Below, piece after piece: positions 6,001 to 30,715 of a stretch of DNA of 30,715 bases (position 1 is its first letter; each line of letters starts with the position of its first letter). The position numbers were made by a program. This stretch comes from Myxococcota bacterium (GTDB taxonomy: Bacteria; Myxococcota; XYA12-FULL-58-9; JALHOP01): assembly GCA_041288095.1 (NCBI GenBank), contig JBGGMJ010000021.1:1-30715 (forward strand). Reading direction: 5' to 3'.

Positions 6001-9000
6001 CACTTCGGAGGCCTCGGGAACGCGGTCGCCGCGGCTTGCTGCGAGGTCAACCGCATTCTCGCGGGCGGCTCAGGAGGGAATCGCTCCTGAACACAGCTCA
6101 GACCCAGAGCCACAGTCTCGAGCTGCAGGCGATCTTCCTGCAGCGCGGCTCGGATGGACGGCGCCGCTTCACGAACGCGGAGATCCGCCATTTCATGCCC
6201 ATGGCGGTGCTCTGCACGCGCGTCAACCTCAAGCAGTTTCCGGCGCTCAAGCCGATCATGGCGGAGTTCATCCAGCGCTTGGTGCTACCACGGGTGCTCA
6301 CGTCCGAGGCGTTCGCGCGCGCCGTGCACGCGCACTATCGTGCCCATCCGCCAAACCGGGAGCTCGAGCGCCAGTTCTTCGCCTATTGCCGCGAGCACAC
6401 CGTCGCCAAGGGCGAGCTCGATCCCAAACAAGTCGCGAAATACGTCAAGGCGGCCGCGGCCGTCGCCAAGAAGCCGGCGCCTCAGGCGGCCATGGCCCCG
6501 CCCAAGCAGGGCGGCTTGTGGAGCACCATCCGCAACATCGCGCGCAACATGGGCTGATCGCCATCCGCTAATGCGGACTAGCGTTGCTGATCGCGCTCGA
6601 CCAGCAACGGGAGGCCGGTGGCGATGAACGGCAGCAGCAAGCGCATGCGTTCGCGCCCTTGCGGCGTCGCCGCCGCGTCGGGCGGGAAGGCCGAATCCAG
6701 CACGCGCCGCATGTACGCGATGTCCCCGCCGGACCGTCCCGCGGCCCACTCTTCCATGGCCACCGCGAAGAGCTCCGCCGGATTACGATCGCCGTAGTTA
6801 TGATTGGTGCCGTGGCGCGTGCGGTACACGTGAAGATCGAGCATGCGCGCTTGCATCAGCAGCGCGTGCAAGCGTGGGTCGCCGCGCTCGAGGCCGTGGC
6901 CAGCGACCTCGTGCGTCGTCAGGGTGGGGCCATGCTCGGGGCGGATACCCGGATAGTAGGTGAGCACACCGCCGTTGTACCTCCAGGTGCCGGCGATGGA
7001 GTTGTTGGGCTGACTGAAGTCGATGCGGCCGATCTCACCCGCGGCGCGCGCCGGTAGCTGCTTCACCCAGTCGGCGATCTGCTCGTCGGTTGGCAATCGC
7101 GAAGCATCGTGGCCAGAACGCGACGCAATCGGCACCTCGTGCTCGATGTCGCCGATGCGCACGCGCATGGTTCGGCTGCCGTCAGCAGCGGGCGTTCCCA
7201 GCTCCACCGAACTAGGCCGCGGCAAATCCGCGAAAGCACGCGGCTGGCGGTTCGGCACGCGACGCTCGAAGTCGACGCGGACCTCGTCGATGGTGGCCGG
7301 CCGCAACCGTCCAGCGTCCTCCACGAAGATGGCCTGCGCATGGGGGTCGCTGGTGTCGCGATCGGCGGCGTAGGGACGCTCACTGCGCGCCATGATCAAG
7401 CGCGACGCGTCGTCCCCGGTGTAGCGCGCCATCTGCTCGATGAGGCGCACTGGATCGCCACCGGTTCGCGTCCGCAGCTCGTCGAGCAATGGGCCGCGTC
7501 CCGCCCTCACCTCGTTGGCGAGGTCTTGAGCAAAGCGCGCCTCGTCGCCGGCGAGGGTGCGTGCTCGCCGGAGGTCGGCCATGCTATCGACGAGGCGGCG
7601 CGTGGCAACGTCGTCGGCGCGGGGTGAGCGCAGGGCATCGGGCAAGCGCTCCAAGAACTGCTCCCGGGTCTCGGATTGCGACCAAACGCGATAGCTGCGG
7701 CCATCGTGGACGATGATCGTGCCGCCATCGACGTTGGCGCGCGCGGTGACGCCGGGTGGGCCGATGACGACGCGGGGCGGTGACCCCGGCTCGAGCCGCG
7801 CGACCTGATATTCGGTCTGGCCGCCGCTGAGCTGGCGGCGGACCACGCTGGTCACGCGATCGACGCTGCTCACGACCTCGTAGTGGCGGCCACCGGCTAC
7901 GTATGAGGTGATGCCGGTAGGTCCACTCACCGCGCCCTCGGGATGAACTTCGTTCGATCCCGGGCGGATGATGACAGCGTTGCCTTCGACATCCAGCGCG
8001 GCGGCGGCGCCGCGTCCGTTATCGACGATGCGAAAGTGCTCCGGACCGCGCGCCCCTTGCCGGACGTGAAAGTACTGTCCGATCGAGTTGCCTACACCCA
8101 GGATTGGCCGCGGATCGCCGACTGATGACAACGGGCTCATCCGCAGGGCGCCGCCGGCATCAGGGCTCAACACACCCACCGGCAGACCCTCGGTGTTGAA
8201 GGCGATGGCTCGTCCGTTCTCGCGGACAGTCGTGTAGGCGCGGCCTTCCGGGTCCAGCCAGTAGGCGGTGCCGGGATTGCGCGCTGCAAGCAAGGTCTCG
8301 CGCACCGCCGCGTCGGTATCGGCCGGCATGCGGGCCACGTCGACTTCGGTGCGGCTGCGCTCTGGGATGTCGTCGAGGGTGCGTGCCAGCCGCACGGGCT
8401 CGTCGCCGCCGATACGCGCGCGTTCTTGGTTGAAGTCAGTGCGGCGGTAACCGCGCGCGCTGTAGCGCGAGAACGCGGGCACAAAGCCCTGGAGCATCGC
8501 AGGCTCGACGGCTCCAACGGAACGAACGTAGGGGAGGTTCTGCCCCCCCGCGTTGGTACCGACCGCGAGCGTCCGACCCTCGCCGTCGATGTAGAAGCGC
8601 GTGTTGGTTTCCCGCGACTCGCCCATGTGCCGCAGCGCGCGACCAGTCGTGTCGATCATGCCCTGCTCGGTCATCCAGATGGGGCCCTGTGGTGTTTCAT
8701 GCCGGCCCATCGCCGGTACGCCGTTCCAAAACATGTCACGGACGAGCGGGTCGTCGGGATTAAGGCGTACACGATAGCGGAGGACGTCGCCGTCGGTATC
8801 GACGAGACCACGATGGGCCAGGGCGTGCGCATGCGCCACCTCGTCGGGGGTCGCGCCGGCTGGCACACGCACGTCCAGCCTGCGCGCTAGGCCGTTTCCA
8901 GTCACCACGAGCGGCACGCCGTCGGTGTCGCGCGCCACGTAGACGTGGTCGCGCGGGTCGGAACCGTCGTGGATGCGGCTCATGCGCCCGGGCTGGACCT

Positions 9001-30000: not shown

Positions 30001-30715
30001 CCGGCGACACGCTCGTACGTCCAAGGGATCCAGGCGCAGATCGCGGCGCTGCGGAAGTAAGCAGCAGCGGCTACCTCCGCTTCTTGGTCTCGACCTTTTT
30101 CGTCGTCGTCGTCTTCTTGGTGGTGGTGCGCGTCGTCTTCGTGGTGGTCGTCTTCGTCGCCTTGATCGGCTTCTCCGCCGCGACTTTGTCGATGGCGTTT
30201 TCGGTGTCGTCCTCGGGGACTTCCTCGGTGGGCTCGGCTGCCTCCGCCGCCTCGGGGGCCGCCGCGACAGCGGGTGCTACCGTGAGCCGCGTCTTGCAGC
30301 CATCGATGCACTCGGTAAAGCGATCCTGGCAGCGCTCGAGGCACCGCCCGTCGGCCGCGCAGCTGCCGCCGCAAGCGTCATGCAGGGAACGCGCGCGCAT
30401 CTCGCACGGCTCCTTGTCGGACTCGATCGGCGCCTGGCGGCAGCCCGGGAACTGCGACTCGGGAGTCACCACCGGGCGCTCGTCGCTCAAGCTCTCGCGA
30501 TTCACGTAGCCAACGCGGCCCCAAATGTCGCGCACGAGCGCGTACTCACCGAAGACCTCGCGCAAGAAAACGACCTCTTCACCACGCACCAGCGTGTCGA
30601 CCTGGCCATAGCCACGCTGGGCCGCGGGACCGCTCCACATCGAGGCCGGCGAGGTTACCCACTGCTTGTGCAACGGCGGCGGACCACCGGAGAGCGCGAC
30701 GATGACGATCGCCAG

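What a model noticed while it worked through the whole genome (the two positions that open the first line are those of the whole stretch)
6565..30273. Genus-specific hyper-abundant interrupted palindrome GTCCGC-N4-GCGGAC
The interrupted palindrome TCCGC-N4-GCGGA (core CCGC-N4-GCGG) is spread over the whole genome about 12-fold above a synonymous-codon null. It lies in all reading frames and on both strands. It is enriched only in this genus and is conserved at orthologous sites between species. It is a DNA-level signal of unknown function. The coordinates give the 11 sites of the window contig as an example of a genome-wide feature.
Evidence so far: 472 sites at spacer 4 versus 8-39 at the 12 other spacers 0-12. 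403 in ORFs versus 32.9±5.3 after synonymous shuffling, N5 control at expectation. 45-98 sites per frame class. No G-U asymmetry. Relatives: 472/311/521/374 in the genus versus 0-71 in 37 others. 16-mer 87/80/52/41 versus at most 15 in 297 other genomes of the phylum. Conservation 51/109 and 68/133 versus 152/732 and 169/939 for control words.
(Added by a program. Inside this text positions count along the whole contig: contig position 1 is position 1 of the stretch shown here. "Call 12" and the like, gene names such as g00115 and contig names such as C1 are that model's own, and its searches are not shown. The text may have been shortened before it was handed on; [...] marks where a part breaks off. 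The agent that wrote the report below was given it as the finding of a first reader that could run no searches.)

Follow-up and report, generated by a model that had tools for sequence, protein, structure and literature searches.

The report
Evenly spaced genome-wide palindromic DNA tag
An uncultured soil bacterial genus carries a fuzzy 16-18 base palindrome about once per kilobase, evenly spaced and conserved between species, which resembles the 'self-DNA tags' of a few other bacteria; its function is still unknown.

Summary
TCCGC-N4-GCGGA occurs 472 times at spacer 4, against 8-39 at the other spacers. In coding DNA it is 12.1 times above a synonymous-shuffle null.

The 'spacer' is not free. 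The full motif is the dyad yGTCCGC-TATA-GCGGACr, about 14 bits. It has about 5,800 copies above a shuffled control, roughly one per kb.

- **Location:** sites lie in all frames and in intergenic DNA in proportion to its share. About 15% of the genome's rarest codons sit inside them.
- **Spacing:** sites are more even than chance. Variance/mean is 0.48-0.66 against 0.95-1.72 for control words, with depletion below about 500 bp and no lattice.
- **Recognition:** symmetric positions show no compensatory pairing and no G-U asymmetry. It is therefore read as duplex sequence, most simply by a two-fold symmetric protein, not as a hairpin.
- **Conservation:** 243 of 456 sites are kept in a species only 80% identical, against 11 of 48 for control matrices.
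- **Distribution:** only the four genomes of the genus are enriched among 401 genomes of the phylum.

No methylase, Vsr or mobile element matches this distribution. My best guess (0.36) is a USS/DUS/HIP1-like self-DNA tag. The reader protein is unidentified.

The parts
520..535 (.). motif site GACCGCTATCGCGAAC, in histidine-kinase gene
   Evidence: 18.2 bits on the palindromic matrix
1255..1270 (.). motif site
   Evidence: 13.4 bits
1300..1315 (.). motif site
   Evidence: 13.5 bits
4972..4987 (.). motif site
   Evidence: 14.9 bits
5731..5746 (.). motif site
   Evidence: 12.1 bits
   Evidence: 17.8 bits, exact core
8212..8227 (.). motif site GTCCGTTCTCGCGGAC (core broken by one base, missed by the exact pattern)
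   Evidence: 17.2 bits
8767..8782 (.). motif site
   Evidence: 13.4 bits
9025..9040 (.). motif site
   Evidence: 15.2 bits
   Evidence: 13.7 bits, exact core
   Evidence: 14.2 bits, exact 12-base arms
   Evidence: 16.9 bits
13208..13223 (.). motif site
   Evidence: 12.2 bits
15051..15066 (.). motif site
   Evidence: 14.5 bits
   Evidence: 17.6 bits
18986..19001 (.). motif site in trp operon
   Evidence: 13.8 bits
20290..20305 (.). motif site GTCCGCTTTAGCGTCT in trpF
   Evidence: 17.9 bits
21264..21279 (.). motif site in trpC
   Evidence: 15.5 bits
22654..22669 (.). motif site
   Evidence: 14.3 bits
   Evidence: 13.6 bits
25057..25072 (.). motif site in LysR gene
   Evidence: 13.0 bits
26639..26654 (.). 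motif site in aconitase-family gene
   Evidence: 17.0 bits
27288..27303 (.). motif site
   Evidence: 13.1 bits
28378..28393 (.). motif site
   Evidence: 13.4 bits
   Evidence: 15.2 bits
29986..30001 (.). motif site
   Evidence: 15.8 bits

Best explanation
**Shown.** The genus carries a dyad-symmetric DNA word, yGTCCGC-TATA-GCGGACr. It is read as double-stranded sequence, since both halves are needed at fixed spacing and base pairing between the arms is not maintained. It is kept at about one adequate copy per kb everywhere in the genome, at a visible cost to codon choice. It is retained at orthologous places between species.

**Inferred.**
This would explain why thousands of 3-4-mismatch sites exist but no perfect one.
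- The word works as a 'self-DNA tag' in DNA exchange, like USS/DUS of Pasteurellaceae and Neisseriaceae and as now proposed for cyanobacterial HIP1. Fragments that carry a tag would be preferentially taken up or recombined.
- Under that model, tags accumulate by recombination-driven drive plus selection until nearly every kb-sized fragment carries one. A second tag within a few hundred bases adds nothing and is not maintained, which gives the even spacing.
For: **Density and motif.**
- About 5,800 copies exceed a synonymous-plus-intergenic shuffle. At 12 bits or more the count is 5,146 against 447.
- Density is about 1 per 1.1 kb. H. influenzae USS spacing is given as about 1,000 bp (PMC7811141, summary passage).

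**Even spacing.**
- In 481 bins of 10 kb the mean is 8.93 and the variance 4.93, and no bin holds fewer than 3 sites.
- Variance/mean is 0.66-0.48 at 1-20 kb, against 0.95-1.72 for 9 control 7-mers.
- The pair correlation is 0.28, 0.43, 0.70 and 0.75 in the first four 100-bp bins and about 1 from 1 kb onwards.
- Even spacing of USS is cited from Karlin et al. in PMC1939737 (passage). Two USS within 100 bp do not raise uptake (PMC7811141 passage).

**Duplex reading, not a hairpin.**
- Where both symmetric positions deviate from consensus, complementary pairs number 88 against 88.4 expected, 171 against 178.7, and 78 against 72.3.
- The half-site alone is not enriched: 9,662 against 10,038.

**Uniform presence.**
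- Sites are in proportion in coding and intergenic DNA.
- They also fill the 8-14 bp spacers of the ribosomal-protein operon.
- Density in G001 DNA that does not align to G000 is 0.69 per kb, against 0.67 in aligned DNA.

**Cost.** 189 of 1,286 ATA codons and 180 of 1,156 TTA codons lie inside sites that cover only 1.3% of all codons.

**Conservation.**
- 111 of 186 sites are kept, against 32.0 +/- 4.9 in a flank-matched neutral simulation.
- On the whole contig, 243 of 456 are kept, against 11 of 48 for control matrices.
- Where a site is lost, another lies within 200 bp in 18% of 115 cases. For conserved sites the figure is 6% of 313.

**Restricted to one genus.** Matches with up to 3 mismatches number 954-1,711 in 4 genomes and 0-53 in 397 other genomes of the phylum.

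**Uptake machinery is present.** ComEC, a ComEA-like HHH protein and 12 prepilin-type genes were found.

**Precedent for a palindromic tag.** HIP1 raises transformation efficiency, and a DNA-uptake role has been proposed for it (abstracts of bioRxiv 10.1101/2024.09.10.611283 and PMC13756078).
Against: - Nothing links the motif to uptake directly. ComEC is in all 41 of 41 genomes searched, so its presence discriminates nothing.
- Known uptake sequences are asymmetric 9-12-mers whose exact form is by far the most enriched (table in PMC1939737). This motif is a long, fuzzy dyad with 0 perfect and 7 one-mismatch 16-mers.
- No receptor candidate was found.
- No depletion was seen in species-specific DNA. 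In H. influenzae, strain-specific segments have about half the USS density. However, unaligned DNA here may simply be missing from the 90%-complete assembly.
- Even spacing and conservation are equally expected for an intracellular architectural or repair site.
- All four genomes are uncultured draft bins, and no experiment exists.
Confidence: 0.36

Rival explanations
1. Intracellular chromosome-maintenance site. An abundant dimeric DNA-binding protein binds about once per kb. It could be a nucleoid-associated protein, a loader, or a repair or strand-discrimination factor. Purifying selection keeps coverage even.
For: - Dyad symmetry without hairpin covariation fits a dimeric duplex reader.
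- Coverage is even and has no long gaps. The largest gap at 10 bits is 6.5 kb, and 8 gaps reach 4.5 kb. Variance/mean is about 0.5.
- Sites are conserved while individual bases turn over. Site retention is 60%, yet base identity is only 0.877 against 0.812 in flanks.
- No region of any contig is free of the motif.
- A chromosome-structure role was proposed for HIP1 (PMC5861425 abstract).
- A repair-guiding role was also proposed for HIP1 (PMC4390886 passage).
Against: - No candidate protein was found.
- There is no lattice-like periodicity, only short-range exclusion.
- Sites show no relation to gene starts or ends. Relative-position deciles hold 358-495 sites each.
- Genes next to the strongest intergenic sites are unrelated housekeeping genes.
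- I know of no nucleoid protein that requires a 14-bit site at 1 per kb (recalled, not searched).
Confidence: 0.3
2. Target of an orphan DNA methyltransferase, as with HIP1 and its CGATCG/GATC methylases. The function would run through the methyl mark, for example repair direction or methylation-dependent discrimination of incoming DNA.
For: - HIP1 abundance largely coincides with CGATCG methylases (PMC4390886 passages).
- Methylated HIP1 boosts transformation (abstract).
- The genus keeps two solitary methylase genes. One is a Dam-family enzyme of 278 aa. The other is a small N6_N4-type enzyme of 259 aa.
Against: No DNA methylase family is both conserved in the genus and restricted to it:
- C5 methylase was not found in G000 or G003.
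- PF02384 was not found in G000.
- The Dam-family gene is in 20 of 21 genomes of the order, which lack the motif.
- The N6_N4-type gene also occurs in G011, G012 and G017.

G000 is 90% complete and G003 84% complete, so these absences are 'not found'. A change of specificity in a conserved enzyme cannot be excluded.
Confidence: 0.12
3. Neutral by-product of a sequence-biased mutation or repair process (very-short-patch-like correction towards the motif), with no function.
For: - The motif lies in all frames and in non-coding DNA at equal density.
- Enrichment grades with match quality. The real/control ratio is 2.2 at 10-12 bits and 52 at 18-20 bits (derived).
Against: - A process acting on each near-site independently does not predict neighbour exclusion out to about 500 bp or sub-Poisson counts.
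- Vsr was not found in G000, G001 or G003.
- Both halves are required at exact spacing. That needs a dimeric, 16-bp-specific repair enzyme, for which there is no candidate.
- Retention is 3.5 times the flank-matched neutral expectation. Continuing bias could, however, mimic part of this.
Confidence: 0.08
4. Structured nucleic acid: an RNA or single-strand DNA hairpin with a 6-bp stem and a tetraloop. Alternatively, remnants of a miniature mobile element.
For: The sequence is an inverted repeat with a 4-base centre. A multi-copy HNH element carries a copy near each end.
Against: - There is no compensatory change at any of the 8 symmetric pairs.
- There is no G-U asymmetry relative to the mRNA strand: 1,737 against 1,797.
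- Other GC-rich arms at N4 are not enriched.
- Flanks are at background composition, and 85% of sites lie in-frame inside conserved genes.
- The HNH element gave 0 matches in G001, which still has 954 sites.
Confidence: 0.02

Closest known systems
HIP1 (GCGATCGC) and other highly iterated palindromes of cyanobacteria
   Same: - It is a hyper-abundant palindrome found in all frames and in intergenic DNA.
- It is conserved at orthologous sites beyond neutral expectation.
- Its distribution along the chromosome is non-random.
- It is lineage-restricted and its function is unsettled. Proposals are chromosome structure, methyl-directed repair, and transformation or uptake (abstracts and passages).
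   Different: - HIP1 is an exact, contiguous 8-10-mer whose perfect form dominates. A table in PMC1939737 gives 5,648 perfect 10-mers against 5 expected.
- Here the word is 16-18 bp and fuzzy, and no perfect copy exists.
- HIP1 overlaps the sites of conserved methylases. No matching methylase was found here.
- The phylum is different: record titles of the nearest relatives name Myxococcota or Bdellovibrionales bins.
- HIP1's reported periodicity is 10-90 kb. Here the pattern is short-range exclusion only, and contigs are too short to test 10-90 kb.
DNA uptake sequences (USS of Pasteurellaceae, DUS of Neisseriaceae)
   Same: - Density is about one per kb and spacing is even.
- The motif occurs on both strands, in all frames and in intergenic DNA.
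- It is restricted to one clade and shared by its species.
- The proteome bears a cost.
- Closely spaced pairs give no added benefit.
   Different: - USS and DUS are asymmetric 9-12-mers with a strongly preferred exact core.
- Their defining property, biased uptake, has been measured.
- DUS has a known minor-pilin receptor, ComP (title and abstract listing).
- Here the word is a dyad. Uptake is untested and no receptor is known.
- Species-specific DNA is not depleted.
Chi recombination hotspots
   Same: Chi is an over-represented genomic word that marks self DNA for the recombination machinery. A Chi-like role has been suggested for HIP1 (abstract). The inner half-site contains AGCGG, which I recall as the Bacillus subtilis Chi. 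That is from memory and was not checked.
   Different: Chi is a 5-8 nt asymmetric word read on one strand and is skewed in orientation with replication. Here both halves at exact spacing are required. The motif is its own reverse complement.
REP/BIME-type intergenic palindromic repeats
   Same: Both are GC-rich inverted repeats present in hundreds to thousands of copies.
   Different: REP elements are intergenic and behave as hairpin-forming units. Here 83-88% of sites are inside or at the edge of genes, and pairing is not conserved. The genome has a separate REP-like repeat, AAATGGGGACACYAACCATTT, with 40 copies of which 39 are intergenic.

Membership tests
DNA uptake sequences (USS/DUS) | Competent cells preferentially take up DNA that carries the word | not testable with these tools
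   The lineage is uncultured. Only assembled contigs of soil metagenome runs are held.
DNA uptake sequences (USS/DUS) | Hundreds to thousands of copies, about 1 per kb, in both coding and non-coding DNA of one clade only | tested here: met
   - About 5,800 copies exceed the control.
- 12-17% are intergenic, against 14.5% non-coding DNA.
- 4 of 4 genus genomes are enriched and 0 of 397 others.
DNA uptake sequences (USS/DUS) | Spacing more even than random | tested here: met
   Variance/mean is 0.48-0.66, against 0.95-1.72 for 9 control words. The pair correlation is below 0.8 under 400 bp.
DNA uptake sequences (USS/DUS) | Short asymmetric word whose exact core is the most enriched form | tested here: not met
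   The motif is a palindromic 16-18-mer. Copies number 0 perfect, 7 with one mismatch, 191 with two and 1,444 with three.
DNA uptake sequences (USS/DUS) | Cognate surface receptor (ComP-type minor pilin) | tested here: inconclusive
   12 prepilin-type genes and a ComEA-like gene exist. None is tied to the motif. The four sites inside one pilin gene are partly explained by the conserved pilin N-terminus.
HIP1-type iterated palindromes | Palindromic word, strongly over-represented and conserved between species beyond neutral expectation | tested here: met
   - Coding DNA holds 12.1 times the synonymous null.
- 111 of 186 sites are kept, against 32.0 +/- 4.9 neutral.
- 243 of 456 are kept, against 11 of 48 for controls.
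HIP1-type iterated palindromes | Co-occurring orphan methyltransferase(s) that recognise the word or its core | tested here: not met
   Four methylase families were searched (PF00145, PF01555, PF02086, PF02384). None is both conserved in the genus and confined to it. Target specificities were not determined.
HIP1-type iterated palindromes | Contiguous exact 8-mer GCGATCGC or a close derivative, in cyanobacteria | tested here: not met
   The sequence, length and degeneracy all differ. The nearest relatives' record titles name Myxococcota or Bdellovibrionales bins.
REP/MITE-like hairpin repeats | Intergenic location, and arms that co-vary to keep pairing | tested here: not met
   400 of 472 strict sites are in genes. 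Complementary double changes are at expectation for all 8 pairs.
Transcription-factor regulon / operator | Sites concentrated upstream of a functionally coherent gene set | tested here: not met
   Sites are uniform along genes. The 20 genes next to the strongest intergenic sites are unrelated: ferritin, RRF, ribosomal proteins, ETF, a deaminase, and 9 without a Pfam match.
Restriction-modification target | Palindromic target avoided in the host genome, with a cognate enzyme pair | tested here: not met
   The word is enriched, not avoided. No conserved genus-specific methylase was found.

The most novel reading that the evidence does not exclude
This could be the first self-DNA tag system of the USS/DUS kind outside Pseudomonadota, and the first read as a dyad by a symmetric receptor. 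It sits in an uncultured soil genus related to myxobacteria. If so, sequence-gated DNA exchange would have evolved repeatedly. A fuzzy 16-18 bp palindrome spaced once per kb would be an alternative solution to the short exact words known so far. It would also support the recent idea that palindromic HIP1 is an uptake or recombination signal.
Probability: 0.3. Interest if true: 0.88.

Novelty: new variant of a known kind. Interest (0 to 1): 0.8.

Why it matters
Hyper-abundant genomic words are rare. The few known cases (USS, DUS, HIP1, Chi) each opened a view on how bacteria tell their own DNA from foreign DNA or organise their chromosome. HIP1's role is still debated after 30 years.

This case differs in ways that make it useful:
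- **It constrains mechanism.** The motif is clearly dyad-symmetric, fuzzy and evenly spaced. That points to a dimeric duplex reader with saturating benefit per neighbourhood, and it excludes hairpins, peptides, regulons and simple repair bias.
- **It shows cost.** DNA-level pressure overrides codon bias at thousands of sites.
- **It is a practical marker.** Every contig of the bin carries the tag at about 0.9 per kb. It can therefore be used to bin and check the purity of genomes of this lineage, and to trace DNA exchanged within it.

Tried and rejected
- **Hairpin or cruciform.** Rejected: no covariation at the symmetric positions.
- **mRNA structure.** Rejected: 1,737 G-U-compatible pairs on the sense strand against 1,797 on the antisense strand.
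- **General GC-hairpin enrichment.** Rejected: 15 other GC-only 4-mer arms show no N4 peak.
- **Repeated gene family or mobile element.** Rejected: flanks are at background composition.
- **CRISPR repeats.** The only literature hits for CCGCNNNNGCGG were two CRISPR papers, seen as a listing only. The genomic sites have diverse centres and are dispersed.
- **The multi-copy HNH element as cause.** Rejected: 0 matches in G001, which has the motif. Rfam found nothing in the element at E up to 0.01. The only hit in the three stretches searched was a sub-threshold M23 match elsewhere in L182.
- **Regulon or autoregulated reader.** Rejected.
- **Methylases and Vsr.** No fitting distribution was found.
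- **Dense clusters as operators.** At most 4 sites occur within 300 bp, in two places. One is a pilin gene, whose N-terminal peptide partly explains it.
- **Motif-poor islands.** None was found. No 10-kb bin holds fewer than 3 sites. No contig is significantly depleted, the lowest having p = 0.025 among 212.
- **Local compensation after loss.** Lost sites have a neighbour within 200 bp more often than conserved ones, but not more often than random positions (0.18 against 0.25).
- **Taxon from DAHP synthase.** Uninformative.
- **Sequencing runs.** Three soil-metagenome runs from one study hold the stretch, kept only as contigs. No RNA holder is listed. Read laying was not run because contigs cannot show ends or modification.
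- **Literature.** Searches for the motif string and for over-represented or interrupted palindromes found no description of this word. Maughan et al. 2010 on molecular drive was not held and is cited from memory only.

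
Full report
**1. The observation**

The window is the whole of contig C21 of a 5.85-Mb, 212-contig draft genome with 66% G+C.

In the window itself the signal is weak. CCGC-N4-GCGG has 11 sites, where shuffles give 5.56 +/- 2.10. TCCGC-N4-GCGGA has 2 sites.

Genome-wide the signal is unmistakable:

| Pattern | Count at N4 | Range at the other 15 spacers (0-15) |
|---|---|---|
| TCCGC-Nn-GCGGA | 472 | 8-39 |
| GTCCGC-Nn-GCGGAC | 87 | 0-7 |
| CCGC-Nn-GCGG | 2618 | 553-1088 |

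Fifteen other G+C-only (GC-only) 4-mer arms show no N4 peak. The effect therefore belongs to this sequence and not to GC-rich hairpins in general.

I called 4,200 genes with a simple codon-likelihood method, giving 85.7% coding. This is crude, but adequate for frame and shuffle tests.
- In coding DNA there are 400 sites, against 33.0 +/- 4.7 after synonymous shuffling (20 shuffles). The N5 control is 17 against 13.7.
- All six frame/strand classes hold 41-97 sites, and 70 of 472 sites are intergenic.

**2. What the motif really is**

The centre is not free. Among CCGC-N4-GCGG sites, the spacers TTTA, TAAA and TATA are 54-64 times over their genomic 4-mer frequency, and the flanks prefer G-T before and A-C after.

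I ran an unbiased scan of all 1,024 5-mer arms at spacers 0-15. It ranks TCCGC-N4, GTCCG-N6, CCGCT-N2 (491 copies), CGCTA-N0 (110) and TGTCC-N8 near the top. All are registers of one word.

Counting mismatches to GTCCGCTATAGCGGAC gives the following:

| Mismatches | 0 | 1 | 2 | 3 | 4 |
|---|---|---|---|---|---|
| Genome | 0 | 7 | 191 | 1444 | 3295 |
| Shuffled control genome | 0 | 0 | 7 | 67 | 502 |
| Reversed word | 0 | 0 | 1 | 32 | 380 |

An iteratively refined palindromic matrix, yGTCCGCTATAGCGGACr, has match frequencies of 0.58-0.94 and carries 14.2 bits. At 12 bits or more it finds 5,146 sites against 447 in the control. The excess peaks at about 5,800, roughly one per kb. The matrix was trained on this genome, so the absolute excess is somewhat favoured. 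The independent genomes in section 6 show that it generalises.

In the window, 26 sites reach 12 bits.

**3. How it is read**

If a hairpin mattered, deviations at symmetric positions would compensate each other. They do not. For the three outer arm pairs, complementary double deviants number 88 (88.4 expected), 171 (178.7) and 78 (72.3). None of the 8 pairs shows an excess.

Wobble-compatible pairs are equal on the sense and antisense strands, 1,737 against 1,797.

The half-site alone is not enriched (9,662 against 10,038). Of 4,853 GTCCGC occurrences, 1,632 have a partner with at most 2 mismatches at exactly N4. At other offsets the figure is about 170-350.

The simplest reading is a two-fold symmetric protein that recognises duplex DNA, with both halves contributing. 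This is an inference, because no protein was identified.

Enrichment rises with score. The real/control ratio is about 2 at 10-12 bits and about 50 at 18-20 bits. It rises more slowly than an independent-position model predicts, and perfect sites are missing even in intergenic DNA. That fits a saturating benefit.

**4. Where it lies**

- The intergenic share is 12-17% in every score class, against 14.5% non-coding DNA.
- The frame that puts TAG in phase is disfavoured, as expected.
- Sites are uniform along genes and independent of local G+C, with rho = -0.02.
- They also fill the 8-14-bp spacers of the ribosomal-protein operon.
- Sites cover 1.3% of codons but contain 14.7% of all ATA codons and 15.6% of all TTA codons, the rarest in this genome. 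A DNA-level pressure is overriding codon choice.

**5. Even spacing (new)**

In 481 bins of 10 kb, the mean is 8.93 sites and the variance 4.93, and no bin holds fewer than 3.

Variance/mean is 0.66, 0.62, 0.58, 0.55 and 0.48 at 1, 2, 5, 10 and 20 kb. For 9 control 7-mers of similar abundance it is 0.95-1.72.

The pair-correlation function is 0.28, 0.43, 0.70 and 0.75 in the first four 100-bp bins. It reaches 1 near 1 kb and shows no oscillation up to 12 kb. This is neighbour exclusion, not a lattice.

No contig is significantly depleted.

**6. Relatives**

Matches with up to 3 mismatches number 1,642, 954, 1,711 and 1,443 in the four genus genomes. They number 1-28 in 37 relatives. In 397 other genomes of the phylum, from 154 genera in the sample, they number 0-53. 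One of those genomes, G195, is unpublished, and nothing depends on it.

The record titles of the nearest relatives (97-98% identical SpoVR) call them uncultured Myxococcota or Bdellovibrionales bins. The runs that hold the window are soil metagenomes.

I fetched the 774-kb contig C1 of G001.
- It carries the same matrix at 0.60 sites per kb, with a 10-kb bin mean of 6.0 and variance of 2.99.
- Its DNA is 80.5% identical to G000.
- In the first 400 kb, 111 of 186 G000 sites keep at least 12 bits at the orthologous place. A simulation using each site's own flank rates by codon phase gives 32.0 +/- 4.9.
- Base identity inside sites is only 0.877, against 0.812 in the flanks. The score is therefore conserved more than the letters.
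- On the whole contig, 243 of 456 sites are kept, against 5 of 22, 6 of 20 and 0 of 6 for three control matrices.
- Where the G001 site is lost, another G001 site lies within 200 bp in 18% of 115 cases. For conserved sites the figure is 6% of 313, and for random positions 25%.
- G001 DNA that does not align to G000 has the same density, 0.69 against 0.67 per kb. Some of that DNA may simply be missing from the 90%-complete G000.

**7. Search for a cause**

| Candidate | Result |
|---|---|
| ComEC | Present in 41 of 41 genomes, so uninformative |
| C5 methylase (PF00145) | Not found in G000 or G003 |
| N6_Mtase (PF02384) | Not found in G000 |
| Dam-family gene | In 20 of 21 genomes of the order |
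| 259-aa N6_N4-type gene | Conserved in the genus, but also in three other genomes |
| Vsr | Found only in G002 within the genus |
| Multi-copy HNH element | 15, 28 and 14 matches in G000, G002 and G003, but 0 in G001; not the cause |
| Genes beside the 20 strongest upstream sites | Unrelated to each other |

**8. Interpretation**

The features shown are these:
- density of about one per kb;
- even spacing with short-range redundancy;
- presence everywhere, including species-specific DNA and a native mobile element;
- restriction to one clade;
- retention between species;
- a cost to the proteome.

These are the hallmarks of USS and DUS (passages in PMC1939737 and PMC7811141). Apart from the spacing scale, they are also hallmarks of HIP1 (abstract of PMC5861425). 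HIP1 is palindromic and is now proposed to act in transformation (abstracts).

I therefore rank 'self-DNA tag in DNA exchange, read by a symmetric protein' first, at 0.36. An intracellular architectural or repair site is close behind at 0.30, because spacing and conservation do not separate the two. Methylation-linked function gets 0.12. It lacks a fitting enzyme, but a change of specificity cannot be excluded. Neutral biased repair gets 0.08, mainly because it does not predict neighbour exclusion. Hairpin or mobile-element readings are contradicted (0.02). The remainder is for something not considered.

**9. Limits**

- The gene calls are my own.
- Orthology was tested on one contig of one species.
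- All four genomes are draft bins from uncultured organisms.
- No data on methylation, expression or protein binding exist.
- For the literature I saw abstracts and the quoted passages only. I opened no supplements. The molecular-drive model (Maughan et al. 2010) is recalled, not read.

Noticed in passing
G000 contig C27:53,920-55,200 (locus L180 about 1,900-3,300); also ends of C13, C29, C55, C63, C81, C92, C100, C108, C126, C175, C190, C208, C212: - This is a multi-copy element that breaks contigs. It has a 352-aa ORF with a weak HNH match, flanked by conserved end regions of about 250 bp.
- Each end region holds a 24-base palindrome that looks like a bidirectional terminator (AAAATGCGCGTTNACGCGCATTTT), one copy of the genome-wide motif, and a conserved G+C-rich stretch with no Rfam match.
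- Matches: 15 in G000, 28 in G002, 14 in G003, 0 in G001, and 26 in the distant G038.
   Followed up: partly
G000, 40 places, e.g. C4:12,477 and 12,525; C9:34,478 and 34,504; none in the window: A second repeat, AAATGGGGACAC(T/C)AACCATTT, has 40 copies, of which 39 are intergenic. It often occurs as inverted pairs 30-50 bp apart just downstream of genes, which looks REP-like or terminator-like.
   Followed up: partly
G000 C129:60,368-61,204 (locus L233:1869-2705): A solitary Dam-family adenine methylase (278 aa) sits between housekeeping genes. It is conserved in 20 of 21 genomes of the order, so it is an order-wide orphan methylase of unknown role.
   Followed up: partly
window 6578-11986 (- strand) and 13567-16344 (+ strand): There are two large ORFs. 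One has 1,802 aa and only a short DUF6861 match. The other has 925 aa and no Pfam match. They sit between a SpoVR gene and hybrid histidine kinases. The rest of the window is ordinary: a trp operon, class-II DAHP synthase, a LysR regulator and an aconitase-family gene.
   Followed up: no
G000 C5:35,051, 36,300 and 39,386: Strong motif sites (18.0-18.9 bits) sit in the 8-14-bp gaps before ribosomal-protein genes, with L16 and L14 confirmed by Pfam. It looks as if the tag is squeezed into spacers where coding sequence cannot change.
   Followed up: partly
G000 C181:36,859-37,111 (locus L187): One of the two densest clusters in the genome (4 sites within 240 bp) lies in the last pilin gene of a minor-pilin/PilY1-like operon. 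Other pilin genes also give weak matches at their N-terminal helix codons, so the peptide explains part of it.
   Followed up: partly
G031 (another family of the phylum): There is a small excess of GTCCGC-N4-GCGGAC, 13 against 0 for the reversed control. Several copies have the centre CATG, which may be an ordinary operator family.
   Followed up: no
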